Positions 1-47,906 of a DNA stretch of 64,000 bases are shown here, piece after piece. This DNA is from a phage. The stretch's first letter is position 1. Every line of letters begins with the position of its first letter. The notes below the pieces were generated by a model. That model did no database searches and was not told the DNA's origin. It saw only the letters and a program-made list of their open reading frames with translations. The stretch lies in sequence record PZ445453.1; one strand, 5' to 3'. A program made the position numbers and the translations under genes.

Positions 1-200
1 TCATTACTAAGCTAAATATAATCTATCTAACCTTTAAAACTATAACTATAATCTATCGAATTGTTGCACAAAGTAACTATTAAATTGTTAGTAACATTAC
101 TAAATAATTAATATCCTATCTATTTATGATCTAATCTTTACCTTCCTATCTATTACCTAAATAACCATTTCATACAGAAATCATTTCATACAATAACTAT
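1..200. repeat. AT-rich leader with short direct repeats (CTATCT x4-5; CATTTCATACA x2)
   Basis: Motifs read at ~24-36, 49-61, 113-126, 142-156 and 165-198; no ORF. Confidence 0.5.
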
Positions 201-259
201 AACAAGAAATATAATTAGCAAGCGTATCATTAGCAGCCTATGCCGGACACATAGGCGGC

Positions 260-400
260 TAATAATAACGCAACTACACACCCCACATAATAACCATCAC
301 CGATAGTTATTATTTGTGCTTATGTAGCTTGCAACAATTGCAAGCGCAACAATATACATGGTATATTGTATCCCTTACATTGTTGCGGTGCGTTATTATT
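260..400. repeat. inverted-repeat / palindrome cluster
   Basis: TAATAATAACGCAAC (260-274) vs GTTGCGGTGCGTTATTATT (382-400); internal palindromes TTGCAACAATTGCAA and CAATATAC-ATG-GTATATTG. Confidence 0.5.
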
Positions 401-704
401 AGCTAATATTTGGAACATTGGCTATAATATAAGCTACATATAATAAGCTATTCAATAATAAACATCGTGAACAATGACATTGATGATCATAATGCGCCAC
501 CTTCCAGGGGACGCTATGTGAACACAAAGAAATCTTTCTTGTCAAGAAAAATATCACCATTATTGCGCAAAATTATTTATATCTGAATAGATGGTTTTTC
601 ATACTATTGCCCCATATAACCTATCATTTGTTGAGCCTATTCTCTTAAAAGCGCAATAAATCAGAATTATCTTGATTTTTAGGTAGTTTTATAGTATAGA
701 AAAT

Positions 705-913
705 ATGCAAATGATAATCATTATCAGCTATCTTCCACGGGTGGCACTATTTCACGCCAGATCATTTCATTTGGCAAGGTGTAGATAGATGTTTAGACTT
801 GCCAAGCCATTGATTTACTTAGAATTTATCTGTTTTGTTGTGAGTAGTACCTTTCTTGCTCAGAAAATAATCAAAAGTCTTATAAGTCATTGAATGATAA
901 TGCAAATGATAAT
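705..913. repeat. 14-bp direct repeat ATGCAAATGATAAT (705-718 and 900-913)
   Basis: Exact repeat read in sequence; both copies next to ATGATAAT-like half repeats. Confidence 0.55.
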
Positions 914-1042
914 AATTCTCATTGATATTTGAGGGGGACGGTCGGCAGAAATCGGGGGGCGCTGAAAATCGCGTTAAGCACCTCTCGCAAGCGAGCAGTA
1001 TTTTGCGGCAAGTTATTGATATTATTGGCTTTACGCTTATGA

Positions 1043-1131
1043 AAAGGGGTGTGTCGAAATAAATCGGGTATACCGGAAAATTTTTGTGGTATAGATATTT
1101 ATTTGTCTATATTATGTACAAAGGGGTGTGT
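1043..1131. repeat. direct repeat AAAGGGGTGTGT (1043-1054 and 1120-1131)
   Basis: Exact 12-mer twice, each followed by (C/T)(G/A)AAA(A)TAA, just upstream of the first ORF. Confidence 0.5.
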
Positions 1132-1224
1132 TAAAAATAATAGGTATATATAGAATAATTGATAGGGAAATCCTATACTAATTCCTCCATTAATGATGTT
1201 TCTATGTTACTGTCCTTGTAATAG

Positions 1225-1647
1225 ATGAAAAGACGCTATATGATGTGTGGCATGAAACGTAAATTTATAAAGGAGTCTGATATGTGTGTTCCTCTTAGCA
1301 GTCCACTGCTGTTAGAATTTTACAAAGCATGGATGGAAGATCATTCCTCAATGCATCGTGAGAATGTTGGTTTGTGTAATTGCCTTATGGATTACCTGGC
1401 AACCACTATGTCAAAGAAAAAACCTACGGAAGAAGATATAGAATATTTCAAGATGGTTCGTAGCAAAACGCTGGAAGAGATGAAACTGCAATTCACGTGT
1501 GCTGGGCTATCCTCCTTCCTACCCTTTAATTATGATCTTCTGTGTTATGAAGATGAAGGTAAGACACATTCTTGCCATACCAACCCAAAGAGATTGCAGT
1601 GGGTGAAAGATAGAATCGAAGATGCAAATAATGCTTGCATTGAATAG
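1225..1647 (+). CDS. hypothetical protein, paralog family A member 1
   Basis: 140-aa ORF; shares LLxFY...GLCxCL...PFN...KRxxWVxDR pattern with 3575..3943 and 4567..5151. Confidence 0.55.
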   Translation: MKRRYMMCGMKRKFIKESDMCVPLSSPLLLEFYKAWMEDHSSMHRENVGLCNCLMDYLATTMSKKKPTEEDIEYFKMVRSKTLEEMKLQFTCAGLSSFLPFNYDLLCYEDEGKTHSCHTNPKRLQWVKDRIEDANNACIE

Positions 1648-1717
1648 AAATGTCTGTACACTGTGTTCCATAAGATATGCAATATCGCGCATAACAAACT
1701 ACTAATGAGAGGTGTAA

Positions 1718-2176
1718 ATGAAAACTGTATCTTTGTATCTTGCTAACACGGAGCGTGTACATAATCTTGTAAAAGAATGCGGTGTGAGTGTTCAATTTAA
1801 CATAGGAAAGCCTTCCGTGGTGACAGGCAGTGAGATGTGTGTTATTGATTTCCTCAATGAATATTTTCGTGGAAAACCTATTGCTCGTCACTTCATTCAA
1901 GAAATGCGAGATGTTCTACAGGATTATGAATTCTACCCAGAAATTTGTGAACGCTATGAAACGATTCTTAGTTCTGTAGAAGATCCAGATACTAGTGAAA
2001 CAGGTGCTTCCCACTTGCTGTGGATGTTGAATGAAATTCAGGATGGGTGTAATGGTATGTCTGAAACCAAACGCCATCGTTGGCTAGGCTATATTCAGGG
2101 TGTTATGGTTATGAAAAACCTTATTACAGTGAATGATGAACGTAACGCTACACGCCCCGTCTTTAATGGAGCATAA
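1718..2176 (+). CDS. hypothetical protein
   Basis: 152-aa ORF in co-directional packed block. Confidence 0.55.
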   Translation: MKTVSLYLANTERVHNLVKECGVSVQFNIGKPSVVTGSEMCVIDFLNEYFRGKPIARHFIQEMRDVLQDYEFYPEICERYETILSSVEDPDTSETGASHLLWMLNEIQDGCNGMSETKRHRWLGYIQGVMVMKNLITVNDERNATRPVFNGA

Positions 2177-2177
2177 C

Positions 2178-2393
2178 ATGAAAAGCATTAGGGTGTGTAT
2201 TGAAAATAATTGTGGCTATCTGGGGTTGACACACGTTGCTTTCCCTCTTATATTGGATGCCGATATAGCTTACAGCGGAGTTGCTTATGTGTCATTCAAG
2301 ACAATGAGCCAAGTACCTGGCTGGAATTGGGAAGTAGTTGATGTTGTTGAAGGAGAAGACTATGTTTTCCTTCCACACGAATATACTGTTTAA
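2178..2393 (+). CDS. hypothetical protein
   Basis: ORF trimmed to ATG at 2178 (GGAG 6 nt upstream, directly after upstream stop). Confidence 0.45.
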   Translation: MKSIRVCIENNCGYLGLTHVAFPLILDADIAYSGVAYVSFKTMSQVPGWNWEVVDVVEGEDYVFLPHEYTV

Positions 2394-2408
2394 AGAGAGG
2401 AAAAGAAG

Positions 2409-2591
2409 ATGGATAAACAAACTACCGTGTACTTAGTAACAAAGAATACCCTAGACTGGAACCAATGCAGCACTGTCCCTTACAAGATCTGTGCAACATT
2501 AGAACTAGCACAACGTGCAGAAGCAGAAGTGGATGCCATGCAAATGCAACACAGCTATGGTGAAATCATTCCTTTTACTATTGAACAATAA
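2409..2591 (+). CDS. hypothetical protein
   Basis: 60-aa ORF, RBS-like AGAGG upstream. Confidence 0.45.
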   Translation: MDKQTTVYLVTKNTLDWNQCSTVPYKICATLELAQRAEAEVDAMQMQHSYGEIIPFTIEQ

Positions 2592-2602
2592 GGATTTGTG
2601 TA

Positions 2603-3055
2603 ATGTTTGAAATTGGTAAAGTGTATCGTTTTAAGAACGCATCTTATATCCGTAAGTTTGCTAATGTGTCTGAGTGCAATAGCAGGATTGCTTCTTTCTT
2701 AGGTGATTCCTGTTTTCGTGTATTAGATGTGGATGACTGGTATGGTGTCACTTCTTTGCAATCCTTAGCAGGAGAGCAAGAAATTATCACTCAAAATGAA
2801 GGAGACTTTGTTCTGTGTTACACCTTGCTTGCAGAAGCTGAGTTTGAATACTTTGTAGAAGTATTAGAAGAAGCACCAAAAAGTAAGCATGAAGAGAAAT
2901 ACCTGCTTGTAGTGGATGGAGTTCCAATTGTGGAAACCATCTCCCGTGAGGAAGTTGAAAAAGAGGCAAAACGTTACAAGCTGGATCGTACACAGAGTGT
3001 AGTTGAAGTCTATTCTCTTGTTGGTGTTGCAGATGTTCATGTGAACATTGTATAA
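2603..3055 (+). CDS. hypothetical protein
   Basis: 150-aa ORF. Confidence 0.55.
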   Translation: MFEIGKVYRFKNASYIRKFANVSECNSRIASFLGDSCFRVLDVDDWYGVTSLQSLAGEQEIITQNEGDFVLCYTLLAEAEFEYFVEVLEEAPKSKHEEKYLLVVDGVPIVETISREEVEKEAKRYKLDRTQSVVEVYSLVGVADVHVNIV

Positions 3056-3269
3056 TATGTGTAATGATAGATACATTCTTCGTGTATCTGATAAGTCTCC
3101 TATGTTTGACTGGCGGGGCTGGTGGCTACTAGCTCCGATGCAAGGTCTGACAGACGTGGAAAAGGAGGCTTATGTGTATACAAAAGAAGAGATAGAAGAT
3201 AGCCTTTATTTGACAGATAACATTAAGAATGGTATCTTTGAGTGTAAATTGAAAGGAGAGGAAGAATGA
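3048..3269 (+). CDS. hypothetical protein
   Basis: 73-aa ORF, short overlap with upstream gene. Confidence 0.45.
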   Translation: MYNMCNDRYILRVSDKSPMFDWRGWWLLAPMQGLTDVEKEAYVYTKEEIEDSLYLTDNIKNGIFECKLKGEEE

Positions 3270-3565
3270 CTGTTACAGAAAAACTGCGTTGTATTGCAAA
3301 GCAAAGTGGAGAAGGTTTGTGGTTTCCTATTGATGAAGTTATTCAGGACTGTTACGATCAGGCTAAAACTGGCAAATACTCCAAAGCATTTAAACCATCT
3401 GTTTTCGGTTTGGATGACTATCCGACAAATGAACAAGCAAGGAAACGCCAAGTTGATTTGATTGATCTTGCTATGGAAGCACTACGGGAGCGTGGACTTA
3501 GTAAGGTGTATGCTTTAAACACCAAAGAGGGTTTTGTAGATTCAGTGATCGTAGACTGGCATTAA
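3266..3565 (+). CDS. hypothetical protein
   Basis: 99-aa ORF, ATGA-type overlap with upstream stop. Confidence 0.5.
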   Translation: MTVTEKLRCIAKQSGEGLWFPIDEVIQDCYDQAKTGKYSKAFKPSVFGLDDYPTNEQARKRQVDLIDLAMEALRERGLSKVYALNTKEGFVDSVIVDWH

Positions 3566-3574
3566 GGAGCAGCC

Positions 3575-3943
3575 ATGCAAGAGAATAATAAAGTGTGTAA
3601 CATGAAAAGCAGCCCCTATTTGCTACAATTTTATGAGTGGTGGTTGGAACAAGAAGATACAAACTTTAGCAAAAAGCACTATGGTCTTTGCACGTGTCTT
3701 GTAGACTTCTTATACAACATTGCTTGGATAAAAGATGTTGAAAATGTATCAAAACTCCAATCCTCTGTACGAGAGGAAATGAAGGAACAGTTTAAGAAAG
3801 CGGGTTTGAACCATTTACATCCATTTAATACAGATTTCTCACATTACTTTACAGAAACAGAGTTAGGCATTGCACACCTTAACAAAGAACGTGTACAATG
3901 GGTGATTGATCGTATTCGTGATATGGAGGAATACAATGGTTAA
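3575..3943 (+). CDS. hypothetical protein, paralog family A member 2
   Basis: 122-aa ORF; family A motifs (LLQFYEWW, GLCTCL, HPFN, ERVQWVIDRI). Confidence 0.55.
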   Translation: MQENNKVCNMKSSPYLLQFYEWWLEQEDTNFSKKHYGLCTCLVDFLYNIAWIKDVENVSKLQSSVREEMKEQFKKAGLNHLHPFNTDFSHYFTETELGIAHLNKERVQWVIDRIRDMEEYNG

Positions 3944-4154
3944 GTTTAAAATTTTCTGTGCAATTACTGTTTGTCTTATTCTTGCATACGTATTATTCTC
4001 TAATATCATCCGTTTAGGTGAGTATATGGCAAGAGAAGCTCGTGAAAGCGAAGCTAAAAAAGAACAGTGTATTGTGTTCAAGCATCAAAGAGATGCTGAA
4101 AAGTTTCTCGCACTTGATTGCAATCGTTATGTATCTTATCAAATGTATAAGTAA
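3936..4154 (+). CDS. small membrane protein, paralog family B
   Basis: Start moved to ATG 3936 after GGAGGA; N-terminal hydrophobic helix; C-terminal KHQRDAEKFLALDCNRYVSY resembles 8648..8872. Confidence 0.45.
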   Translation: MVKFKIFCAITVCLILAYVLFSNIIRLGEYMAREARESEAKKEQCIVFKHQRDAEKFLALDCNRYVSYQMYK

Positions 4155-4163
4155 GGAGGATTT

Positions 4164-4388
4164 ATGGTAAAACGTCTGGAATGGGATGCGTGTACTGCTC
4201 ACGCTTGTCACTGCGATATTGTGGAAGATCCTAATGGAGAAATGGTGTATTATGAGGATTACGAAGCATTGCATAATGCTGTGATCGCTTTACTGGATGA
4301 TATTAGCTCTCGCTATCCAGGACAACAATTTACGTGTCCACACATTCAACTGTTAGCTAAACTTACGGAGTATCCAAGTGTTCCATAA
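4164..4388 (+). CDS. hypothetical protein
   Basis: 74-aa ORF with GGAGGA RBS. Confidence 0.5.
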   Translation: MVKRLEWDACTAHACHCDIVEDPNGEMVYYEDYEALHNAVIALLDDISSRYPGQQFTCPHIQLLAKLTEYPSVP

Positions 4389-4389
4389 T

Positions 4390-4557
4390 ATGGGTGTCCC
4401 TGAACAACTCCTCTTTATTGTAGGACTAGTAGGCTTATTGGCGGCTGGCGCTAAAGCCGCTTCTCACACGCATCACATAATGTTAAGATTTCTATTCCTG
4501 CTCCCTTCTATCCTCGTGTTATTAGTCATACTGATCGATAATATTTTGCACAATTAA
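4390..4557 (+). CDS. small hydrophobic protein (sub-threshold ORF)
   Basis: 55-aa ORF not in supplied track; two hydrophobic stretches; fills intergenic gap. Confidence 0.3.
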   Translation: MGVPEQLLFIVGLVGLLAAGAKAASHTHHIMLRFLFLLPSILVLLVILIDNILHN

Positions 4558-4566
4558 GGAGAGGTT

Positions 4567-5151
4567 ATGAGTAAAATTATACCAAGCAGTTATGAATTAT
4601 TACAGTTTTATGTATATTATATAGACTGGGTTACTAGATCAAATGTTAAAGACAATGCGATGTTTAGTAAAAACATCTGTTTAACAGAAAGTATCTTCCG
4701 TTACTGGCACACAGGCAGAAAGTGTACACACAGTGAAGCTATGCGCATTGTAGGTGAATACCTAGAGCAATTGCAAAAAGCAGAACTTCCTGTCCTTCAC
4801 CCATTCAATGAATCTAAAGAAGAATTAGAACAAGAGTGTAGGGAAGGTAAATGCCATTTGAATGAAAAACGTATTGAATGGGTAAGGCAACGTTTAGCCG
4901 ATGCAGGAAAGTCTCCTAGTGACTCTGACTATACGTGGTACGATGTAGAGGGTTTAGTTCAAGGTTTTGAGGCTTGTGCTATAAATAATACCAACTTTGC
5001 CAAAGTTTTATGCGAGGTTTATGACCTGGCAGATAAAATCCGAAATCAAGGATGGAAACAAGAGCATAAAGAATCATATGAACGCCTTGACAAGATTTTC
5101 AAACAGATCTATTCTAACCACAAAGAGATGTTCCAAATGGAGGATGTGTAA
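4567..5151 (+). CDS. hypothetical protein, paralog family A member 3
   Basis: 194-aa ORF; family A motifs (LLQFY, ICLTE, HPFN, EKRIEWVRQRL). Confidence 0.55.
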   Translation: MSKIIPSSYELLQFYVYYIDWVTRSNVKDNAMFSKNICLTESIFRYWHTGRKCTHSEAMRIVGEYLEQLQKAELPVLHPFNESKEELEQECREGKCHLNEKRIEWVRQRLADAGKSPSDSDYTWYDVEGLVQGFEACAINNTNFAKVLCEVYDLADKIRNQGWKQEHKESYERLDKIFKQIYSNHKEMFQMEDV

Positions 5152-5837
5152 TGAAAGAGATTATGTTTGAAGGGCATCGTTACGAAGTTCCAGACAATGC
5201 AAATTTCATGGCTCGTGATATCACTGGGGATGTGTTCTGGTTTGAAGATGAACCTGTGTTTTCTTCGAACAAACACTGGTTTTCACAACAATCTTCTTCG
5301 GAAAATATGACTTTTGGCTACGTAGAGCCTAAAGTACGTTGCAAAGCAGCTTCTTCTTTGGTAAAAATTTCTCAAGATGATCAAGAAAATACTCAAGATG
5401 TTGTTAGTGCACTACTGAAGTACATTGCAGAACTTGAGAAGAAAGTTAAAGAAGCAGAAACTAAAGTGAAAGCACGATCAGCAATCATCGAAACTATGTC
5501 TGAACGTATTTTAGAACTGGAAGATTTGTGTGGAGAGGCTTATCAAGTGGTTGGTGCACTGGCTTGTGAAGCAGAAATGTTTGAAACTTCAGAACAAGTT
5601 TCACATATGTTAGATAATTTAAGTGAATGTAAAATGATTCATGATGATGTATTGCCATTTTGTTGCAATGTTAACAAAACAGAGCAAACAGAAGATTCAG
5701 AAACAGTTTATGTTCCGCTGATGTGTGTTCCAGATCATCTAAAAGGTGTATTCTCTTGTAAATGGTCACTGTTGAGCGTTACCAACTGTGGTGAAAACTA
5801 TTCTGCTAACATTGAATTGCTAAAACACGTTAAATAA
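5151..5837 (+). CDS. hypothetical protein
   Basis: 228-aa ORF; central predicted coiled coil. Confidence 0.55.
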   Translation: MKEIMFEGHRYEVPDNANFMARDITGDVFWFEDEPVFSSNKHWFSQQSSSENMTFGYVEPKVRCKAASSLVKISQDDQENTQDVVSALLKYIAELEKKVKEAETKVKARSAIIETMSERILELEDLCGEAYQVVGALACEAEMFETSEQVSHMLDNLSECKMIHDDVLPFCCNVNKTEQTEDSETVYVPLMCVPDHLKGVFSCKWSLLSVTNCGENYSANIELLKHVK

Positions 5838-5847
5838 GGAGAGTAAG

Positions 5848-6252
5848 ATGTGGTCTGTTAAAATCAAATATAATGCACAGTATTATGGTGGACAACCTTA
5901 TGAAGTTGTTATTTGTGACTGTATCTCTAAAGAAGTTGCACAGCTTTGTGGCGCTGGCGTTAGTGAAGCTATGAACAAAATGCATAACTCGACTGTGCGT
6001 TACCTGGATCAAGATATTCCAGAAGATGTAAATGACTATGCTTACGAAGTTATTTACAGTGAAGGTAAGAAGCTCTCTATTGAAGATGCACTTAAAGCAC
6101 TACCTGCTATGTGCAGCCCAACACCAGAAGCAGTTAAAGAGATTTTACCAGAATCCAACCCCGATGAATATGCCTCTATGGTTGCTTCAGATATGTGGAA
6201 TCTCTGTCGAGAAACTATGATTAAAAATCTTGTGGAAATGGCGCATGAGTAA
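5848..6252 (+). CDS. hypothetical protein
   Basis: 134-aa ORF. Confidence 0.55.
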   Translation: MWSVKIKYNAQYYGGQPYEVVICDCISKEVAQLCGAGVSEAMNKMHNSTVRYLDQDIPEDVNDYAYEVIYSEGKKLSIEDALKALPAMCSPTPEAVKEILPESNPDEYASMVASDMWNLCRETMIKNLVEMAHE

Positions 6253-6463
6253 AACACACTTTATACATCCGTTTGATCCAAAGAACAAGGCTGTTATACA
6301 CCGCCGTTGGACTGAAACGCGCATTACGAAATGTCCTGTGCCAGCAGCACAGGAATATAACAAAACATATAAAGCAGAATTTGTGGAGTACACCTTTATA
6401 AATAACAAAGGGAAGGAGGTTTATGTTCCAGAATACTGCCTTTGGATAAAATGGGAGGAATAA
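6245..6463 (+). CDS. hypothetical protein
   Basis: ORF trimmed to ATG 6245 overlapping upstream stop. Confidence 0.4.
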   Translation: MSKTHFIHPFDPKNKAVIHRRWTETRITKCPVPAAQEYNKTYKAEFVEYTFINNKGKEVYVPEYCLWIKWEE

Positions 6464-6630
6464 TGCAAACATTTTTTATCGACAAGTTCAATAAAAATAT
6501 GAACACGTGGATGGCAACATTCACTATGCAATTTGCGTCGTTTAAAGAAGCTCAAGAATGGTGCGATCAACACAAGGATTTTGATTTTTACTATCAAATC
6601 AATCTGAATCTCTCTCCAGAGGAGAAATAA
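6463..6630 (+). CDS. hypothetical protein
   Basis: ORF trimmed to ATG 6463 after GGGAGG. Confidence 0.4.
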   Translation: MQTFFIDKFNKNMNTWMATFTMQFASFKEAQEWCDQHKDFDFYYQINLNLSPEEK

Positions 6631-6631
6631 T

Positions 6632-6976
6632 ATGTTGGCTGATATTGAAATCCTTATGTACCGACAAGGTATGATCAAAATGTGGCTGGACTCTTTTAGC
6701 AACATATACAGCACAGTGCGATCAGCAGAGGAGCGTAAAACGCTTATTTTATCTGCTATTGTTGATAAACAACGTTTCTTCAAAGAAGTTTTGCAAACAG
6801 GCTTCTCCGATGCAGGAGTAGAGATTGCAACTCTTAGTCTTGGGGTGCTGTCTTACTTGGAGTCCGTTGTTTTATATGTCTTCTCTTTAGAAGAAGACTT
6901 GCAATTTGAAGCATTAAAACTTATCTTAGATGCTGCAATTGACATAGAACAAAATCGAATTGATTCTTTTGAATAA
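6632..6976 (+). CDS. hypothetical protein
   Basis: 114-aa ORF. Confidence 0.5.
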   Translation: MLADIEILMYRQGMIKMWLDSFSNIYSTVRSAEERKTLILSAIVDKQRFFKEVLQTGFSDAGVEIATLSLGVLSYLESVVLYVFSLEEDLQFEALKLILDAAIDIEQNRIDSFE

Positions 6977-6992
6977 AAATAAGGAGAAAACT

Positions 6993-7451
6993 ATGCAAGA
7001 GGTTAAACATTATCCACATGGTCGTAGTTTTGTAGCTGTATGGCATGTTCCTGCTCGTAATGAACTGTTTTGTGCATCTTTTCATTACAAAGATGGACAA
7101 TATTTCACCTATGACGAGACGATGGATGATTTTATCCCAGAGTGCGATCATGGGTATACACCAATGTTCTTTAAACGTATGAAAGCTCGTTTCTTCGTTA
7201 CAGATGTTGATGGTGAACCTACTTGGCACATCGAAGAAGATTGGCAAGATTCTGTGGATATTAAAGAAGCCCCAGAATGGGCTACACTACTGGTACACGT
7301 GAAAACCCCTACCCTTGACATTATGGCGTGGGTTAATCATGATGATACCCATTACCAATACATAAACAGTAGCACAGAGATTTCTGGTGAGATTATTGGT
7401 CGTTGGAAGCCTACGAATCAGGTTGCTATTGTCGGATATAAGGCAGTATAA
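6993..7451 (+). CDS. hypothetical protein
   Basis: Start at ATG 6993 after AAGGAG. Confidence 0.5.
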   Translation: MQEVKHYPHGRSFVAVWHVPARNELFCASFHYKDGQYFTYDETMDDFIPECDHGYTPMFFKRMKARFFVTDVDGEPTWHIEEDWQDSVDIKEAPEWATLLVHVKTPTLDIMAWVNHDDTHYQYINSSTEISGEIIGRWKPTNQVAIVGYKAV

Positions 7452-7452
7452 T

Positions 7453-7647
7453 ATGAAAAGTAGCGTAGATTGGGATGATTTATCCGCTTTTGAAAAATGG
7501 TTCTTAGGTAGTGGTTGTTATGCAGATGGGGATCTCGAAAGAGATCCTTCTGGAAACTACATTATGCCATTAACCCAAGGTTTTTATGAGTGCTGGTGCG
7601 CAGCACAAAACAACGTACTGAATAAGGAGACAACACAATGCAATTAA
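7453..7647 (+). CDS. hypothetical protein
   Basis: ORF trimmed to ATG 7453 directly after upstream stop. Confidence 0.4.
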   Translation: MKSSVDWDDLSAFEKWFLGSGCYADGDLERDPSGNYIMPLTQGFYECWCAAQNNVLNKETTQCN

Positions 7648-7877
7648 ACATCGGACAACCAATTTTTGATGCAGATACTGGTCAATATGCAGTGATTGTT
7701 GCTCGTATGAGCGGTGATGACTTTATTGTTTCAGAACTACTGGAATCAGATCCGCAACTGCGTGTGGTTTGTGACCTATATCTTCGAGACGAAAGTGATC
7801 GCATTGCACTGAAAGAAGATGGTATGCTTTACTACACCTGGACTAGAGATCCTGGTGTAAAGGAGGTAGAGGTATAA
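7638..7877 (+). CDS. hypothetical protein
   Basis: 79-aa ORF with AAGGAG RBS. Confidence 0.5.
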   Translation: MQLNIGQPIFDADTGQYAVIVARMSGDDFIVSELLESDPQLRVVCDLYLRDESDRIALKEDGMLYYTWTRDPGVKEVEV

Positions 7878-8176
7878 TGGTAAGGAATAGGGGTTTACAT
7901 AAAAGAAGACACCTTACTTACTGGCATCGCAAAGTACATGAACCTGTATCAAAGAAAGAATGGCAATACCTGCCTTATGGAAAGGAGCGAAGGAAGTATT
8001 TGTTAGCTCATTTAAGAGTACATGGTTCGCTTCCTGTTAACAGTAAGTGGCAATTGCAAACAGTTTATGACGAAGATATGAAATATCTGTTAAAGAGAGG
8101 CATTATTTGCCTTGTTAAGATAGGACGATGGAAATCTCGTCAATCTTATATCGTACTTAAACAGGAGAAACCATGA
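7877..8176 (+). CDS. hypothetical basic protein
   Basis: 99-aa ORF, Lys/Arg-rich. Confidence 0.5.
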   Translation: MVRNRGLHKRRHLTYWHRKVHEPVSKKEWQYLPYGKERRKYLLAHLRVHGSLPVNSKWQLQTVYDEDMKYLLKRGIICLVKIGRWKSRQSYIVLKQEKP

Positions 8177-8424
8177 ATATCAAAGATGTTGTAGCATATG
8201 TAGAAGATGAAGTTAAAAACCATACAAGTTTACTGAAAGTAATGGTTGTGGTTAAAAATGGCATTGGACAAGTAAACGTACAACATGTCTTATCTGATAC
8301 TGTATATAATGTGTTTGAATGTAAAGACACACCTCATGGAGTACGTGTGGTGTATATTGATAACAATTTCAAAGAATGTGTGAGACATACCTTAGAAAAT
8401 GAACTAAGGATCACAATCTTATGA
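8173..8424 (+). CDS. hypothetical protein
   Basis: 83-aa ORF, ATGA overlap. Confidence 0.5.
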   Translation: MNIKDVVAYVEDEVKNHTSLLKVMVVVKNGIGQVNVQHVLSDTVYNVFECKDTPHGVRVVYIDNNFKECVRHTLENELRITIL

Positions 8425-8594
8425 GTTATTATGTTGTACCCTATGCCAATAAGTGGAGAGTAAGAGAAACTTGTTTTCTATTCTCCTGGTGGGCTACGTT
8501 CGGAGATGGTTGTGGAAATGATACAGGGAAGCCTGTAGAGTATGACACAAAAGAAGAATGTGAACAGTGGATAAAATTAACACAAAGATGTTGA
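8421..8594 (+). CDS. small Cys-containing protein (sub-threshold ORF)
   Basis: 57-aa ORF not in supplied track; ATGA overlap with upstream gene. Confidence 0.3.
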   Translation: MSYYVVPYANKWRVRETCFLFSWWATFGDGCGNDTGKPVEYDTKEECEQWIKLTQRC

Positions 8595-8647
8595 CACGAT
8601 CTTAACTTCTTGTTAGTATCAATATGTACTAACGATAAGGAGGGTTT

Positions 8648-8872
8648 ATGAAGTCTGTAAACAAGTTGCAACAATTTTTGTTATCAACAGCAATCTTTTT
8701 GCTTTTGTTAATTGGTATTCTGTATGGTGCATCTAACTTATACAATCTACACAACAATGTAGAACATAATATAGAGAAGTGCACCATCCTAAAACACAAT
8801 AAACAAGCAGAAGATTTCTTAAAGAATAAGTGTTACAATTACATTGATTATGAGGAGACAAACAATGATTAA
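8648..8872 (+). CDS. small membrane protein, paralog family B
   Basis: N-terminal TM helix; KHNKQAEDFLKNKCYNYIDY resembles 3936..4154. Confidence 0.5.
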   Translation: MKSVNKLQQFLLSTAIFLLLLIGILYGASNLYNLHNNVEHNIEKCTILKHNKQAEDFLKNKCYNYIDYEETNND

Positions 8873-9107
8873 ACAATTAGGGATGCGAGTATACAGTGAG
8901 TGGACTCCAAGCAATGGCCCAGGAGTTGTTGCAGCTAAATGTATCAATGGTCGTATTGAGTACCTGGAAGGTTATGAAGATAATGAAGAGTTAGTAGATT
9001 ATGCTAAATCTTTTATTGAAGATGATACAGACTTTATTGTATTGTATGATACAGGAGAGTTAGAGTATGGATATGATGGAGATGGGGATATCTTTGAACT
9101 TCAATAA
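8865..9107 (+). CDS. hypothetical acidic protein
   Basis: ORF trimmed to ATG 8865 after GAGGAG. Confidence 0.45.
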   Translation: MIKQLGMRVYSEWTPSNGPGVVAAKCINGRIEYLEGYEDNEELVDYAKSFIEDDTDFIVLYDTGELEYGYDGDGDIFELQ

Positions 9108-9125
9108 GAGTAGTAAGTAAGATAT

Positions 9126-9174
9126 AAAGAGTATATAGTTAGTTATAGAGTTAGTAACATTACATATACTCTTT
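9126..9174. repeat. intergenic inverted repeat (AAAGAGTATAT ... ATATACTCTTT)
   Basis: 11-bp arms read at 9126-9136 and 9164-9174. Confidence 0.5.
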
Positions 9175-9314
9175 CCATGTATAACATGGAATATTCTCTA
9201 CCTCGCTATCGCTCGGTATATAAGATTAGGGTAGCATGTTTTTTACGAAAAGTAAAACTGTTTGTACCGATTGATAGCAGGTTTTTAATAGATTTTATCT
9301 ATGAGGAGTAGAAA

Positions 9315-9533
9315 GTGTACAAATTATATAAAGCAAAAGATAAGTTTACGGGTAATACATCTGGTTTCTATGTAACACCACGAGGTGTTGCTGTATTTGA
9401 TTGGATCTCTGGTACTCCAGATCGTGAAATGATCTCTCTTGTAAAACTGTCAGAACAAGAGTACACTTACGGTGACATTACAACATTCTATTCTCGTGCA
9501 GAGAATCCAAAACTGATTGCGGAGTGGGAATAA
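9315..9533 (+). CDS. hypothetical protein (GTG start)
   Basis: 72-aa ORF, GAGGAG RBS upstream of GTG. Confidence 0.45.
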   Translation: MYKLYKAKDKFTGNTSGFYVTPRGVAVFDWISGTPDREMISLVKLSEQEYTYGDITTFYSRAENPKLIAEWE

Positions 9534-9796
9534 TGGTTACACGATATGGTTTAGAGGTGTACAGCCAAGGTGCTGCTGGTCAATGTGATATTGTACCAGA
9601 TCCAGAGGGGGATTATGTTCTTCTTGCTGATTACAATAAGCTAGAAGAAAGACTTCTGGCTGTGTATGCTAAAGAGAACAAAACAATCTGTCCTTATTGC
9701 AGTGGAATGGGTTGGGTGGTTGCAGATGTTGGACAAATGTATGAATGTGTACCTTGTAAAACCACAGGATTTATTGAAAAGGATACTGACAAATGA
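9533..9796 (+). CDS. hypothetical protein with CxxC...CxxC
   Basis: CPYCSGMG...CVPCK zinc-ribbon-like spacing. Confidence 0.45.
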   Translation: MVTRYGLEVYSQGAAGQCDIVPDPEGDYVLLADYNKLEERLLAVYAKENKTICPYCSGMGWVVADVGQMYECVPCKTTGFIEKDTDK

Positions 9797-10041
9797 CTGT
9801 AGCAGATAAAATGAGAGAACTGGCAGAAAACGCAGAACTTAACAAAGCAAAGGAGAGTTTACAAAATATCTACGCGTATATTGAGAGAGCAGCTAAAGAT
9901 GGGGACAGAGAAGTTGCTATATACACGCTTTATCCAACTTTTGTAAAAGTTAGCTTGGATGCTGAAGGTTTTTCAACTTTTATTGATACAGAAACATCTC
10001 ATTACGATGAAAACTTTACTCGAATAGTTATTCGATGGTAA
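9793..10041 (+). CDS. hypothetical protein
   Basis: 82-aa ORF, ATGA overlap. Confidence 0.5.
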   Translation: MTVADKMRELAENAELNKAKESLQNIYAYIERAAKDGDREVAIYTLYPTFVKVSLDAEGFSTFIDTETSHYDENFTRIVIRW

Positions 10042-10146
10042 ATTTCTGACATTTATGCGCCCTGGCTACCTGGGCGTAATAAATTCAGTTTATATTTGAT
10101 CCGCGCCTTCGGCGCTTAGGCAAAGCCACGCCACATAGGAGAGTTT

Positions 10147-10557
10147 ATGTTCAAATGGTTAAAAGGGTTTCTAACATCTTTGGCAGAACCTAAGCAAGAT
10201 GTTATTAAAAGCTCTATCACAGGAAAACCGCTTGTTATCGTTACAGGCGGCTTTGGTCATGGGTTTTCCCTTAAACAAACAGATATAGGTTTACAGGGAT
10301 GTTTGATTAGTTTTAGAATCACTCAATTAGGAGACAACAGACAAACAATCTTAGATCTTTTCAATGGAGAGTTTGATGATTATTTATCTAAGAGTGATAA
10401 AGAACGTCTGATCGAGCATATAAAACACCGCTATGAACGTGGTGGTTACTATCTAGAGACAAAACGTAATTCACAAGGTAATCTTGACATAGTTAGCACA
10501 GCGTGGGATAATGAATTTAAAACTAAACTTGGTAAACTTCTGGAGGAGTTATGGTAA
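10147..10557 (+). CDS. hypothetical protein
   Basis: 136-aa ORF with GGAG RBS. Confidence 0.5.
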   Translation: MFKWLKGFLTSLAEPKQDVIKSSITGKPLVIVTGGFGHGFSLKQTDIGLQGCLISFRITQLGDNRQTILDLFNGEFDDYLSKSDKERLIEHIKHRYERGGYYLETKRNSQGNLDIVSTAWDNEFKTKLGKLLEELW

Positions 10558-10733
10558 ATATTAAAACAGGTGATATTGTACGTCTTGCCAGTGAAGAAAT
10601 GTTAATGACTGTAATGGTATCTACTTATGATACTTGCGAAGTGGTGTGGTTTGATGTTAATGAGCAACTACAGAAAGCTACATTTGATAAACGTATGCTT
10701 CGTAAAGTTGAAGAAGTGAAGGAGGAAGAATAA
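10551..10733 (+). CDS. hypothetical protein
   Basis: 60-aa ORF. Confidence 0.45.
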   Translation: MVNIKTGDIVRLASEEMLMTVMVSTYDTCEVVWFDVNEQLQKATFDKRMLRKVEEVKEEE

Positions 10734-10734
10734 T

Positions 10735-10947
10735 ATGACAATGTTGCTTCGTGTTTTTGTGTTTCTTATGTTCTGGATTATCGTTGGTAACGGTATCGTA
10801 TTTTTGATTTTTCCTGAAGTAATGACAGGTAATGAAAATAAAGCCGTGCCTTACATTATGCTTATTGGTTACGGTATTGGTACACTTGGACTACTGTTTG
10901 CTGATTGGTTGGTCAATACTTTGTTCTCTAAGTACAGGAACAACTAA
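10735..10947 (+). CDS. small two-TM membrane protein
   Basis: 70 aa with two hydrophobic helices. Confidence 0.5.
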   Translation: MTMLLRVFVFLMFWIIVGNGIVFLIFPEVMTGNENKAVPYIMLIGYGIGTLGLLFADWLVNTLFSKYRNN

Positions 10948-10948
10948 T

Positions 10949-11221
10949 ATGTCGGAAAAATTACCTAACGTCTTCTTTTGTTTTGTAGACTGTGTTACAC
11001 AAGAAATTATAGTTGACGAAGAAGGTATGTTTACCTATTTTGCATCTGAAGAAGAGGCAAAACTATCAGCTATGAAATGTATAAGCCAATTGTCAGTACC
11101 TGCTGTCAACAGGTTCGGTATTGCACAGGTGTATAAAACAGTAACAGAGTTTACACCAGAGCGAAAACTAACTTTTCTTAACGTTCACTTTGTTTGTAAG
11201 TTTAGTGAACTACGACATTAA
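10949..11221 (+). CDS. hypothetical protein
   Basis: ORF trimmed to ATG 10949. Confidence 0.4.
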   Translation: MSEKLPNVFFCFVDCVTQEIIVDEEGMFTYFASEEEAKLSAMKCISQLSVPAVNRFGIAQVYKTVTEFTPERKLTFLNVHFVCKFSELRH

Positions 11222-11234
11222 ATCAGGAGTAAAA

Positions 11235-11834
11235 ATGAAAGAATATTGGAGTGGTGAGAAGGGCTTGCTAAAGCCAGGAATGCTTTTGCGAGTAAAGAAC
11301 ATGTTGATCACACAAGATTACATAATGCCTAATCCTGGAACATTAGTAGAATTCCTTACTGCACGAGATCAACCTGGGGTTGGTGAAATGTGGATTGTAA
11401 CATGGATATCTCTCGATGGTAAATTGCGCGTTGCTCCTATTGACCCAAAACACTTGGAATCTCCTTACGCCAGCATTGATTCTCGGATCATAGATTTGGC
11501 TAGAGTTTATAAGGCTAGGACTGGTGTAGAATTAGATGTAGAAATTTTAAATCAATGTATTGACTTCTTACCTGAAAAAGTGCATAATGCACAACAAGAA
11601 GATAGCGGTTTAGAAGTTATTCTTCTGAATGATGGGATGTTCTCTGGTCTGGCATCTGTAGATTTTCCAATAACATTAAGATTGTTACCTGGGGAATACG
11701 TACTGGATGACACTACTATTGCTATATCCTCTAAAATTTTAGAACTCATTCCAGGTGCAAGGTGTGTTGGTGATACATCTTCCTTGCTGTTTACCCTGAA
11801 TGAAGAAGCCATTATAGTTAAAAAGGAGAAGTAA
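11235..11834 (+). CDS. hypothetical protein
   Basis: Start at ATG 11235 after CAGGAG. Confidence 0.5.
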   Translation: MKEYWSGEKGLLKPGMLLRVKNMLITQDYIMPNPGTLVEFLTARDQPGVGEMWIVTWISLDGKLRVAPIDPKHLESPYASIDSRIIDLARVYKARTGVELDVEILNQCIDFLPEKVHNAQQEDSGLEVILLNDGMFSGLASVDFPITLRLLPGEYVLDDTTIAISSKILELIPGARCVGDTSSLLFTLNEEAIIVKKEK

Positions 11835-11990
11835 ATGATGACGTTTATTGTTGGTGTTGTTGTTGGTTATTTTGGTCACAAGTACCAAGATGTTATCATC
11901 GCTAAAGTTGACGAAGTAATCGAAAAATTTAAACACTAATTTTCTAAAAGGCTGTACTATTGTGCAGCCTATCTTTCAAAGGAGAGTAAA

Positions 11991-12164
11991 ATGTTCAAAG
12001 ATACCAATTATAAATGTGTACATTGTGGTAAATCTTTTGGTGATCACCAAGCTAAAACATTCAATTGTCCACGAAAAGGGCGAGGTAGCTTTAAAGGTTT
12101 TAATCCATCCCACGTTTATTCTCCCAACTACGAGAAACCAGAAGAAGAAAAATTTGTAATCTGA
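11991..12164 (+). CDS. small C2C2 zinc-finger protein (sub-threshold ORF)
   Basis: 57-aa ORF not in supplied track; AAGGAGAG RBS; KCVHCGK...FNCPRKG. Confidence 0.35.
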   Translation: MFKDTNYKCVHCGKSFGDHQAKTFNCPRKGRGSFKGFNPSHVYSPNYEKPEEEKFVI

Positions 12165-12173
12165 GGAGGCAAT

Positions 12174-12461
12174 ATGGAACTAGTACAAGAAGTTTATGAA
12201 AAACTAAAAGAAGAGAATCTTGATTGGCCTGAACATGCTCTTATTGTCGTCAAAGATACTAATGGTGAAATAAAATTCTCAAGTGTAAGTGAAGATGATG
12301 TTGTTTTAAGTCCTACAGGATATTATATGAGAGGTGTTACGTGCCTATTCAACACCAAAGTGTATCCTGAAATTAAACTTAGTTACGGGGAACCTGATCA
12401 TCCAGAAATCGTTACACGTAATGAATATGAAAATTATTATTTTGCTCGTGAAAGCAAATAA
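12174..12461 (+). CDS. hypothetical protein
   Basis: 95-aa ORF with GAGGAGG RBS. Confidence 0.5.
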   Translation: MELVQEVYEKLKEENLDWPEHALIVVKDTNGEIKFSSVSEDDVVLSPTGYYMRGVTCLFNTKVYPEIKLSYGEPDHPEIVTRNEYENYYFARESK

Positions 12462-12469
12462 GGAAAACT

Positions 12470-12793
12470 ATGCAAAAAATAAACACTGGTTCTCGTCCTA
12501 AACAGAAGCAAACAAAAGCAAGGGTATCTTATGTTGATAACTCTTGTTATAATTTCAAAAATGTTAAAGAAGTTGTCATTGATGAAAAAGAAGGTTTGAT
12601 TCACATTTCATCTGAACGTTTGAAAGGTAGTGTTACTCTTCGTGAGAATGTATCTATACCTATGAAAGTTGTGGTTACACTTTGTGTTGATAAGCCAGAT
12701 GTTGTTAACTATTATGTGTTCCGTGATAGTTGTATTTCATCTCATAATAAGATTTTTAAATCTTCGCACGTTAAAACAAAACACATTGTATAA
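12470..12793 (+). CDS. hypothetical protein
   Basis: 107-aa ORF followed by terminator. Confidence 0.5.
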   Translation: MQKINTGSRPKQKQTKARVSYVDNSCYNFKNVKEVVIDEKEGLIHISSERLKGSVTLRENVSIPMKVVVTLCVDKPDVVNYYVFRDSCISSHNKIFKSSHVKTKHIV

Positions 12794-12798
12794 CACAT

Positions 12799-12822
12799 AA
12801 ACCCGCTTCGGCGGGTTTTCTT
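12799..12822 (+). terminator. intrinsic terminator
   Basis: CCCGC-TTCG-GCGGG hairpin then TTTTCTT. Confidence 0.7.
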
Positions 12823-12878
12823 GTATGTATGCTCTTCATCTGTTATAAACACTTTTAGCATAAACAATAGGAGGTATT

Positions 12879-13100
12879 ATGTCTGTAGTTGTAGAAGGTA
12901 GTATTGGTTTCTTAGTAGATAACCCTCACCCTTTCGTGGTTAAGGTTCATATTCAAGAAAAGGTAAGCAACAATACGTGGCTGTGCTTGTTAGATAGTAA
13001 GATACACTCTTATACAGAGGTTTATCTTCACACTTGGCAAATTGGTACGATAACAGCAGAGGATGAATTGATAATTGAACTATATGAACGAGATCTATAG
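12879..13100 (+). CDS. hypothetical protein
   Basis: 73-aa ORF with AGGAGG RBS. Confidence 0.45.
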   Translation: MSVVVEGSIGFLVDNPHPFVVKVHIQEKVSNNTWLCLLDSKIHSYTEVYLHTWQIGTITAEDELIIELYERDL

Positions 13101-13180
13101 ATGACTTTATTAGAGAGTATTGTAGTGTTAATCATCTTTATCATTGTTGTCATAGGATATTTTACAGAAGACTAAAATAA

Positions 13181-13213
13181 AGCCCCTAGAATCGCTTCTA
13201 GGGGCTTTTGTTT
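13181..13213. terminator. bidirectional intrinsic terminator at strand-switch
   Basis: 11-bp stem AGCCCCTAGAA/TTCTAGGGGCT flanked by A-run and T-run. Confidence 0.7.
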
Positions 13214-13275
13214 GCATAAGGTAGGGAAACGTATTACTAAAATAAAAAGTGCGTTAGAATGCGTTACAGGAGGTT

Positions 13276-13533
13276 TTAGGAATGCATAAAATCTTCTTCA
13301 GGACAGGTTGAGAGATAAGAAATGCACGTTGGGACAACAACAACATTATCTTTAAGGTTTGCAACCAAACCTTTTGTAATCCCAGCTACTGCCCCGTTAA
13401 TATCTGCTTGACGGATACCAAAACCTTGTTGTGCGGATAGATAACAAAATCCCTCACCTTTCTGTTGATTATTATTGAAGTAATAAACGTAGTGCATCAT
13501 AAAATGGTCTTTAACGATTTGTTCTGTGGTCAT
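13276..13533 (-). CDS. hypothetical protein
   Basis: 85-aa ORF. Confidence 0.5.
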   Translation of the reverse strand: MTTEQIVKDHFMMHYVYYFNNNQQKGEGFCYLSAQQGFGIRQADINGAVAGITKGLVANLKDNVVVVPTCISYLSTCPEEDFMHS

Positions 13534-13577: not shown

Positions 13578-14390
13578 TTATTTAGTCAAATGATCTTCTA
13601 TCATTTTTATGAAAGCAGGATTGCTAAAAGCATCTGCGGCCTTTTCTCGATAAACAAAGACTCCTCTATCTTCGTAAAGAAGAGTTTCTTCGTAATTAAT
13701 TCCTGGGTTAACAACGATCATTTTTGTACCCATATTAAGTGCAGGGAATAATTCCCAATTAAAATTGATAACTTGGTTTGAACATCCTACTACTACAACC
13801 AAATCTTGCATGGTTAAAGTATCAAACAAGTGAGCCATATCTGCATACAAAGGTGCAGCCTCACCAAAAAATACAACATTAGGCTTCACCCAGTTATAAT
13901 CATCTATGTTTATACTGCTGTAACCAATATCTACCAGTGTCTTGTAATCTCCAGGATGCATACGATAAACTATTTCAGGAAGATATCCGTGCACGTGAAT
14001 AACAGAATCCCTGTCTACACCTGCTCGCTCTAGTAGATCATCGACGTTTGTTGTCAAGTTTACTACTTGGTTAGGATATTCCTTAAACCACTTTGCTATT
14101 TGAATATGTGCAGCATTAGGTTGTACATCTTTAAGCTCAACACGTCTTTTGTTATAAAATTCGTGTGTTTTGGCATACAAATCCATACCGTTCTCGTCTA
14201 CACCACCAACCACGGGAAGATCTGGAGATGTTCTAACACGATAACCTGCTTGGAAAGCTCCAATATCGCAGACCTCTTGTAAATCATATTCCTCCCATAA
14301 GGCACGACCACTATCTGTGTCTGTTCGGAATGTTCGAATCCCACTGTCTGCACTTAAACCAGCGCCACTGACAAAAATTACTCTTCGCAT
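13578..14390 (-). CDS. Sir2-family (sirtuin-like) NAD+-dependent enzyme lacking Zn-ribbon
   Basis: GAGLSADSGIRTFR, TTNVDDL and VHG motifs; no CxxC...CxxC module. Confidence 0.8.
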   Translation of the reverse strand: MRRVIFVSGAGLSADSGIRTFRTDTDSGRALWEEYDLQEVCDIGAFQAGYRVRTSPDLPVVGGVDENGMDLYAKTHEFYNKRRVELKDVQPNAAHIQIAKWFKEYPNQVVNLTTNVDDLLERAGVDRDSVIHVHGYLPEIVYRMHPGDYKTLVDIGYSSINIDDYNWVKPNVVFFGEAAPLYADMAHLFDTLTMQDLVVVVGCSNQVINFNWELFPALNMGTKMIVVNPGINYEETLLYEDRGVFVYREKAADAFSNPAFIKMIEDHLTK

Positions 14391-23370: not shown

Positions 23371-23637
23371 TTACTCCGCAATCTGAGCCATGAATTCACG
23401 TAGTTCAGAAAAACCTCCTACGTGGGTTAGCTGTTCACCATCTTCCACAAAAATCTGAGGGAATGTGCGTGGTAGAACACCTGTTTTCTCTAAAACCAGA
23501 TTCTGAATCTGATCTAAAGAATAGTCTTCATCTAAGGTAAGGTATTTAAAATCCTGTTCACGCTGTTCTAGTAGAATCTTAGCGTTAGTGCAGAAAGGAC
23601 AATTTGGTTTACCGTAGATAATAAAATTCATTTTCAC
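23371..23637 (-). CDS. glutaredoxin/NrdH-like redoxin
   Basis: CPFC active site near N-terminus, ~88 aa. Confidence 0.75.
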   Translation of the reverse strand: MKMNFIIYGKPNCPFCTNAKILLEQREQDFKYLTLDEDYSLDQIQNLVLEKTGVLPRTFPQIFVEDGEQLTHVGGFSELREFMAQIAE

Positions 23638-25015: not shown

Positions 25016-25026
25016 TTAATTCCCCT

Positions 25027-25896: not shown

Positions 25897-25904
25897 ACTC
25901 CTCC

Positions 25905-46902: not shown

Positions 46903-46941
46903 AGAGAACATAAAGTCCTAACTCAACTAAGGAGATAAAGA

Positions 46942-47835: not shown

Positions 47836-47845
47836 ATAATAAGTG

Positions 47846-47874: not shown

Positions 47875-47906
47875 ACTCCCACACTAACAAACAAGGAGAC
47901 ATAACT

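What the first reader, a model, noticed from the sequence alone, without database searches (positions are those of the whole stretch)
1225..5151. Triplicated early-gene paralog family A
ORFs 1225-1647, 3575-3943 and 4567-5151 share ordered motifs: LL(E/Q)FY, GLC(N/T)CL or ICLTE, (L/H)PFN, and (N/E)(K/P)(E/K)R(L/V/I)(Q/E)WV.DRI. Three diverged copies in the early block suggest a host-takeover or anti-defence family under diversifying selection.
Basis: seen in the sequence. Interest (0 to 1): 0.5.

Follow-up and report, generated by a model that had tools for sequence, protein, structure and literature searches.

The report
Three old early-gene paralogs, function unknown
Three small genes in the early-type gene block of E. 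coli phage JohannJBalmer are true, anciently diverged relatives in a large, uncharacterised phage-only protein family (which includes phage N4 gp3) that has a predicted helical fold unlike any solved structure; they are conserved rather than fast-evolving, and their function is still unknown.

Summary

Interpretation partly supported. The copies are not a recent triplication: each has closer relatives in other phages than in its own genome. They are under purifying selection (dN/dS 0.07-0.25, like their neighbours). Turnover occurs at the gene level: 2-4 copies within the genus, 10 domains in Citrobacter phage Tr1, and ORF1 here is a chimera left by a deletion between two tandem paralogs. A host-directed early accessory role is the best inference. 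It is untested, and no mechanism can be assigned by homology.

The parts
1282..1647 (+). Family member 1 (bas62_0143, 121 aa). One domain. It is a chimera: the body is orthologous to outra_170, while the last ~11 codons and the 3' flank come from the adjacent paralog outra_171.
   Evidence: Deposited CDS; AAGGAG Shine-Dalgarno 7 nt before ATG 1282; phrog_2510 E 8.6e-23; family HMM E 2.8e-37; chimera shown.
1225..1281 (+).
   Evidence: No Shine-Dalgarno sequence before ATG 1225. The deposited start and the ortholog starts are at the MCVPLSS methionine. The family domain begins at SSPLLLEFY.
1597..1611 (+). Recombination junction inside ORF1 (CAGTGGGTGAAAGAT, coding QWVKD). Upstream the sequence follows outra_170; downstream it follows outra_171.
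   Evidence: Three-way DNA alignment A3 and protein comparison.
3575..3943 (+). Family member 2 (bas62_0150, 122 aa; ortholog of Phi92_gp006). One domain; this is the copy that was modelled.
   Evidence: TAAGGAG 5 nt before the ATG; phrog_2510 E 1.4e-25; AlphaFold2 with a 124-sequence alignment gives pLDDT 89.1, pTM 0.81 and six helices; named Phi92_gp006 in a related record.
4567..4941 (+). Family member 3 (bas62_0154, 194 aa in all): the N-terminal family domain.
   Evidence: TAAGGAG 5 nt before the ATG; phrog_27059 E 3e-139 and phrog_2510 E 3.5e-17; family HMM E 3e-35 over residues 3-121.
4942..5151 (+). C-terminal extension of member 3 (~70 aa) that the other two copies lack; no known family.
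   Evidence: Alignment A1; matches only positions 126-194 of phrog_27059.
1..12818 (+). Co-oriented block of about 40 small, mostly unannotated genes that holds the three members. It ends at a bidirectional terminator-like hairpin at 12799-12818.
   Evidence: Deposited annotation; terminator scan; the GC skew changes sign after about 13 kb.

Best explanation
The three genes are separately maintained, anciently diverged members of a large phage-specific protein family. The family corresponds to PHROG 2510/27059/6418 and pVOG 7392, and includes the ortholog of phage N4 gp3. Its unit is an acidic domain of about 110 aa predicted to form a compact six-helix bundle with no solved relative. SHOWN: homology of the three copies; family size and breadth; the predicted fold; lack of any known-family match; purifying selection; gene-level turnover by tandem duplication, fusion and unequal recombination; stand-alone organisation without a conserved partner gene; recurrent location in early or accessory regions of unrelated phages. 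INFERRED: the proteins are made early in infection. Each is taken to act alone as a dispensable, host-directed accessory factor that binds a host component conserved across Proteobacteria (a protein or small ligand, not DNA). Binding would use the conserved surface formed by the A-G-L-x4-P-F-N loop and the polar residues C39, E68, Q72, H101, N103 and R106 (ORF2 numbering). Several diverged copies would be kept because each has its own target variant or specificity. Whether the outcome is host takeover or counter-defence cannot be decided from sequence.
Against: There is no expression-timing data for any Justusliebigvirus, so 'early' rests on position and analogy. The sigma-70 promoter scan of the block shows no enrichment (52 found, 51.8 expected). 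No interaction, toxicity or knockout data were found for any member. The conserved polar residues (E68, Q72, R106, N103) lie on helix faces next to the hydrophobic core positions, so they may be a buried structural network rather than a binding site; I could not inspect model coordinates. Such strong sequence conservation across very different hosts is unusual for inhibitors of fast-evolving defence proteins.
Confidence: 0.55

Rival explanations
1. The domain is a small enzyme, or a small-molecule binder or sponge, rather than a protein-protein inhibitor. A Cys at the N-terminus of helix 3 (C39), together with H101, N103 or E94, Q72 and R106, would form a catalytic or ligand-binding centre that modifies a host target or binds or destroys a metabolite or signalling nucleotide.
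For: C39 occurs in 123 of 124 sequences, R106 in 124, Q72 in 119, E68 in 115, N103 in 113, H101 in 98, E94 in 97 and N85 in 90, across sequences only 30-45% identical. That much polar conservation over alpha-, beta- and gamma-proteobacterial phages suits a universal ligand better than a variable host protein. Tandem two- and three-domain fusions (P0003, P0005, P0013, P0126) suggest the unit works as an oligomer, as known phage nucleotide sponges do.
Against: H101 is replaced in 21% of members. There is no structural similarity to any enzyme or to the solved sponges. The domain is small and the conserved polar residues may be structural. No Fic/Doc (HxFx[DE]GNGR) or HEPN (Rx4-6H) motif is present.
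Confidence: 0.22
2. One reading: a locally triplicated family evolving under diversifying selection in an arms race with host defences.
For: Copy number varies: 2-4 places per Justusliebigvirus genome, 10 domains in Citrobacter phage Tr1 and 7 places in a Pseudomonas phage. Outra carries a fourth copy and ORF1 is a recombinant. The location is of the early type.
Against: dN/dS is 0.25, 0.07 and 0.09, no higher than the neighbours. Each copy has closer relatives outside the genome than inside it, so the copies are old. About 25 positions are conserved family-wide. dN/dS was gene-wide and pooled over four non-independent pairs at 2-5% divergence, so positive selection at a few sites is not excluded.
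Confidence: 0.1
3. The proteins serve the phage's own programme, for example as transcription or replication cofactors or DNA-binding regulators, rather than targeting the host.
Against: The family is acidic (median pI 5.5, net charge -4). The model has no beta-wing or strand. There is no HTH family hit. Variable copy number, and presence in phages with entirely different transcription and replication strategies, argue against a core role.
Confidence: 0.1
4. ORF2 is a Crl-like protein that binds a host sigma factor.
For: Weak matches of ORF2 residues 8-75 to Crl in two libraries: Pfam PF07417 E 0.09, 13.1 bits; NCBIfam NF008217 E 0.012, 15.5 bits.
Confidence: 0.02

Closest known systems
Phage N4 gp3 (seen here through its ortholog in Enquatrovirus Jura)
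   Same: Same family: hhalign probability 99.3%, E 1.7e-20 against the 124-sequence profile, with the GLC, PFN and HLN..R..W motifs present. It is a single-domain protein of 104 aa located in the N4 early region between gp2 and the RNAPII genes.
   Different: Only 24-28% identical to the window copies. One copy per genome instead of three. N4 gp3 itself has no described function in the papers I could search.
PHROG families 2510, 27059 and 6418, and pVOG VOG7392 (automatically built clusters of unknown function)
   Same: The three ORFs match these profiles (E 1e-17 to 3e-139). The outra annotation assigns the ORF2 and ORF3 orthologs, and the gene that is the ORF1 ortholog (outra_170), to VOG7392.
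   Different: The catalogues split one homologous domain into several clusters and give no function, structure or description. The link between the clusters, N4 gp3 and the prophage fusions is made here.
Mosaic early-left 'ea' region proteins of lambdoid and P22-like prophages (neighbours: Ead/Ea22-like PF13935, DUF551 PF04448)
   Same: In a P22-like prophage the domain is embedded in a 402-aa mosaic protein between erf/abc2 and int, flanked by Ead/Ea22-like and DUF551 genes. That is the classical non-essential accessory region expressed early from PL.
   Different: The window proteins are stand-alone domains in a virulent myovirus. They match neither PF13935 nor PF04448. The fused modules are other PHROGs of unknown function.
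Small early accessory proteins of virulent phages such as T7 class I genes (Ocr, gp0.7) or N4 gp8
   Same: Similar genomic position (the first-entering or early end), small size, acidic character, and apparent dispensability as judged by variable copy number.
   Different: No sequence or structural similarity to any of them. The comparison is by analogy only.

Membership tests
Uncharacterised phage family PHROG 2510/27059/6418 = pVOG 7392 (includes N4 gp3) | Significant full-domain match to the family profile | tested here: met
   phrog_2510 E 8.6e-23, 1.4e-25 and 3.5e-17; phrog_27059 E 3e-139 for ORF3. The 124-sequence family HMM gives E 2.8e-37, 1.1e-39 and 3e-35.
Uncharacterised phage family PHROG 2510/27059/6418 = pVOG 7392 (includes N4 gp3) | Ordered motif set L..FY / GLC / E...QF..AGL / PFN / H.N..R..WV | tested here: met
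   All are present in ORF1-3. Column frequencies across 124 members are; ORF3 has NIC for GLC and QL for QF.
Uncharacterised phage family PHROG 2510/27059/6418 = pVOG 7392 (includes N4 gp3) | Six-helix all-alpha domain of about 110 aa | tested here: met
   AlphaFold2 model of ORF2, pLDDT 89.1. BFVD models of family members superpose with TM 0.55-0.73. ORF1 and ORF3 were not modelled separately.
Crl sigma-factor-binding protein (PF07417 / NF008217) | Score above the curated cut-off | tested here: not met
   13.1 bits against 27, and 15.5 bits against 117, for ORF2 only. No Crl chain is found by the family profiles in the PDB.
Crl sigma-factor-binding protein (PF07417 / NF008217) | Crl fold | tested here: not met
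Ead/Ea22-like (PF13935) and DUF551 (PF04448) | Pfam match | tested here: not met
   No hit for ORF1-3, nor for the downstream genes 5151-5837 and 5848-6252 that one related record labels this way. BLASTP against the prophage Ead and DUF551 proteins is negative.
Fic/Doc | Core motif HxFx(D/E)GNGRxxR on an all-helical fold | tested here: not met
HEPN | Rx4-6H motif on a four-helix bundle | tested here: not met
Winged-helix transcription regulators (MarR/PadR) | HTH plus beta-wing, basic DNA-binding surface, family HMM match | tested here: not met
Known anti-phage defence proteins (PADLOC-DB) | Profile match | tested here: not met
   The only hit is a spurious Cas12d match, E 0.006 and 12.6 bits, for ORF2.
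Known anti-defence proteins (Acr, Ocr, Ard, Tad, Acb, Gad and others) | Sequence or structural homology to a characterised member | tested here: inconclusive
   No dedicated anti-defence library was available. Members with solved structures would have been reachable through the PDB sequence and fold searches, which found nothing.

The most novel reading that the evidence does not exclude
The domain is a previously undescribed fold that defines a broad class of early phage effectors, from N4 gp3 to P22-like prophage 'ea' proteins. It would carry a conserved Cys/His/Asn/Arg/Glu/Gln site that binds or modifies a component universal to Proteobacteria, for instance a signalling nucleotide or a core host machine. 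The several copies in each large phage genome would then represent different specificities, making this a new counter-defence or host-takeover mechanism family.
Probability: 0.25. Interest if true: 0.65.

Novelty: new member of a known kind. Interest (0 to 1): 0.35.

Why it matters
The family is common: 763 clusters at 50% identity, in many phage families that infect alpha-, beta- and gamma-proteobacteria. It is found in virulent and temperate phages alike, sits where phages keep their host-manipulation genes, and has no Pfam entry, no solved structure and no published description. Its members include a gene of a classical model phage (N4 gp3) and genes of the BASEL collection phages Bas60 and Bas62, both genetically tractable on E. 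coli K-12. A function found for one member would therefore annotate many 'hypothetical' early genes at once. For this window alone the result is modest: the paralogy is real, but it is ordinary phage dark matter rather than a fast-evolving arms-race locus.

Tried and rejected
1. Crl lead: weak hits in two libraries, rejected by profile and fold tests.

2. Conserved neighbourhood with Ead/Ea22 and DUF551: suggested by the JLBYU50 annotation and prophage locus L002. Pfam and BLASTP do not support it for the window genes, and no neighbour family recurs across 9 lineages.

4. The word-indexed protein search gave almost nothing; the exhaustive HMMER search was needed.

5. The search for related loci with the 124-sequence alignment failed because no stretch was conserved enough. 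The afdb50 fold library was unavailable.

6. Plasmid leading-region hypothesis: only 1 plasmid record matches.

7. A near-identical prophage copy in complete E. coli genomes: none found.

8. Literature: no paper mentions the PHROG ids or accession numbers. The PhageMaP Bas63 map does not apply, because Bas63 is an 87 kb Felixounavirus. The retron Eco2 paper, the machine-learning anti-defence preprint, the N4 RNAP review and the Achromobacter N4-like paper say nothing about the family. The accessory-gene screen supplements contain no family motif.

9. The single-sequence AlphaFold model was poor (pLDDT 50) and was not used.

10. The sigma-70 promoter scan of the block is uninformative. There are no Rfam matches in 1-13500.
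Full report
IDENTITY OF THE WINDOW. The first 8 kb are 100% identical to Escherichia phage JohannJBalmer (BASEL Bas62, MZ501084.1; Stephanstirmvirinae, Justusliebigvirus, phi92-like). Window position 1 is record position 90312. The window runs over the end of the linear record at about 54520 into the spanin, terminase and capsid genes. The three ORFs are bas62_0143, bas62_0150 and bas62_0154, all deposited as 'hypothetical protein'.

THE OBSERVATION. All three ORFs are present.
- BLASTP with compositional adjustment gives E 5e-26 (ORF1/ORF2, 40% identity over 115 aa), 3e-11 (ORF2/ORF3) and 3e-8 (ORF1/ORF3).
- Local-alignment scores lie 34.5, 15.0 and 12.0 standard deviations above composition-preserving shuffles. 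None of 2000 shuffles reaches the observed score, and unrelated neighbouring proteins score at background.
- The ordered motifs are there.
- Profile searches of all six frames find exactly three copies in the 64 kb.
- Each gene has a canonical (T)AAGGAG site 5-7 nt before its ATG. For ORF1 that is ATG 1282, not 1225.

THE FAMILY. Pfam, NCBIfam and PADLOC give nothing significant, and none of 124 diverse members hits Pfam. PHROGs place the proteins in phrog_2510, phrog_27059 and phrog_6418, all of unknown function. The annotation of phage outra places the family in pVOG VOG7392.

An exhaustive HMMER search of 1.84 billion representatives finds 763 clusters at E<=1e-3 and 176 at E<=1e-10. Most are stand-alone proteins of 100-125 aa. 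Some carry two or three tandem domains, and some embed the domain in longer mosaic proteins.

tblastn finds the domain in 178-219 phage records, and BFVD adds further phages. These include:
- Stephanstirmvirinae;
- N4-like Schitoviridae;
- Autographiviridae of Rhizobium and Burkholderia;
- Ounavirinae;
- Akiravirus;
- a P22-like Salmonella phage;
- a 366 kb Erwinia phage.

Only one of 72,556 plasmid records matches. Every named member is 'hypothetical', and no paper in the library mentions the family identifiers.

STRUCTURE. With the 124-sequence alignment, AlphaFold2 gives a confident model of ORF2 (pLDDT 89.1, pTM 0.81). It has six helices and no strands. The searches for relatives gave:
- Foldseek against the PDB: nothing better than E 1.9.
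- PDB sequence-profile searches: empty.
- BFVD: only uncharacterised phage proteins.

The fold therefore has no solved relative. The family is acidic, with median pI 5.5 and net charge about -4, which argues against DNA binding.

CONSERVATION. Pairwise identities to ORF2 are mostly 30-45%, yet about 25 positions are held in 70-100% of the 124 sequences.
- Hydrophobic core: L16, F19, Y20, W23, L38, L42, F73, L78, F84, W109, V110.
- Loop: A76-G77-L78-x4-P83-F84-N85.
- Polar set: S13, C39 (123/124), E68 (115), Q72 (119), Y91, E94, H101 (98), N103 (113), R106 (124).

All three window copies keep this set. It is either a functional site or a buried polar network. I could not inspect coordinates, so this remains open.

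WHERE THE GENES SIT.
- In the window they lie in a co-oriented block of about 40 small genes (1 to about 12800) that ends at a bidirectional terminator-like hairpin.
- In Enquatrovirus Jura the member is the ortholog of N4 gp3. It lies between gp2 and the RNAPII genes, directly after an annotated terminator, and its membership is secure (hhalign 99.3%, E 1.7e-20). In N4, gp1, gp2 and RNAPII are early products made by the injected virion RNA polymerase (PMC4496689). That gp3 is early is my inference from its position between them.
- In Achromobacter N4-like phage Axy11 the member is 2.9 kb from the left end.
- In Rhizobium podophage TM33 two members lie within 1.5 kb of the record start.
- In Salmonella phage Akira the member is within 2 kb of the terminus.
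- In a T7-like contig two adjacent copies follow the lysis genes, which is the permuted early end.
- In a P22-like prophage the domain is part of a 402-aa mosaic protein between erf/abc2 and int, next to Ead/Ea22-like and DUF551 genes.

No neighbouring gene family recurs across nine lineages, so the domain is a stand-alone module.

EVOLUTION. The 'diversifying selection' idea fails at the gene level. Pooled Nei-Gojobori dN/dS against four congeners is 0.25 (ORF1), 0.07 (ORF2) and 0.09 (ORF3), against 0-0.29 for the other genes of the block.

The copies are old. Each has closer relatives in other phages than in its own genome.

Change happens by gain, loss and recombination of whole genes:
- Justusliebigvirus genomes show 2-4 places by tblastn.
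- Citrobacter phage Tr1 has 9 genes with 10 domains within 12 kb, several of them adjacent.
- Phage outra has a fourth copy next to the ORF1 ortholog.

ORF1 of this window is a chimera. It follows outra_170 (92% identity over residues 1-115) up to the QWVKD-coding motif at 1597-1611. From there it follows the tail and 3' flank of outra_171. This is the signature of a deletion by unequal recombination between tandem paralogs at their most conserved motif.

LEADS THAT FAILED.
- The weak Crl hits did not survive profile and fold tests.
- The Ead/Ea22 and DUF551 labels that one related record gives to the two genes downstream of ORF3 are not supported.
- The Bas63 essentiality map concerns an unrelated phage.
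- Other papers and the screen supplements were silent.

VERDICT.

My best explanation (confidence 0.55) is an early-expressed, stand-alone, host-directed accessory protein that acts by binding a host factor conserved across Proteobacteria. The main rival (0.22) is a small enzyme or ligand binder built around C39/H101/N103/R106.

This is a new, unusually broad but otherwise ordinary member of the class of uncharacterised early phage gene families. Its main value is as a tractable entry point (Bas62, N4 gp3) into a family that is widespread and entirely undescribed.

Noticed in passing
window 586-1281 (sites at 474-510, 705-741, 900-936; 931-955, 1043-1067, 1120-1144): The ~700-nt gene-poor leader upstream of ORF1 holds a Fur-box-like site, GCAAATGATAATCATTATC, at 707-725. 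It has 2 mismatches to the consensus GATAATGATAATCATTATC, with 0.04 matches expected by chance in the window. The site lies inside a three-copy 37-nt direct repeat, and there is a second three-copy 25-nt repeat, AAAGGGGTGTGT.... This may be a regulatory or promoter region at the head of the small-gene block. The Fur consensus is from my own knowledge.
   Followed up: partly
window 5848-6252 (C-terminus) and proteins P0102, P0120, P0129: The protein just downstream of the Ea22-labelled gene ends with ...DMWNLCRETMIKN.... This resembles the ...WNACRAAMLNGGKS C-termini of the prophage mosaic proteins that carry the family domain. I saw it by eye. BLASTP found no significant similarity and I did not test the motif.
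   Followed up: no
window 5151-5837 and 5848-6252: The related record JLBYU50 labels the orthologs 'ead/Ea22-like family protein' and 'DUF551 domain-containing protein'. Pfam does not support either label for the window proteins. The same record also carries other implausible names on small ORFs, such as DNA polymerase III alpha and ABC transporter.
   Followed up: yes
window ~46940-49640 (+ strand): Adjacent genes are annotated as phosphoribosylpyrophosphate synthetase and nicotinamide phosphoribosyltransferase. From memory this pair resembles the phage NAD+ reconstitution pathway NARP1, a known counter-defence. A sirtuin-family gene lies at about 13580-14390 on the - strand. I did not test either.
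   Followed up: no
window ~23630-26900 (- strand): A four-gene dTDP-rhamnose biosynthesis set (rmlA/B/C/D-like) is annotated among the nucleotide-metabolism genes. Its role in the phage is unclear.
   Followed up: no
GenBank records MG065639, MG065656, MG065645, MG065689, MG065650: Five records named 'Campylobacter phage' with host C. jejuni match this E. coli phage group. Four (A150, C3, A145, A110a) are about 96% identical to the window over 8 kb; the fifth (B15) carries a family member by tblastn at 37% identity. The host labels are probably wrong.
   Followed up: no
window ~54520: The window continues from the last base of the linear GenBank record into its first base (i-spanin, terminase), so it was cut from a circularised or permuted form. 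A one-base offset relative to the record accumulates somewhere between 12.7 and 54.5 kb.
   Followed up: partly
L012 (Citrobacter phage Tr1) 18318-30664: This is the largest expansion seen: 9 genes with 10 family domains in 12 kb, including adjacent pairs and one two-domain fusion. It would be a good genome for studying how the copies diverge.
   Followed up: partly
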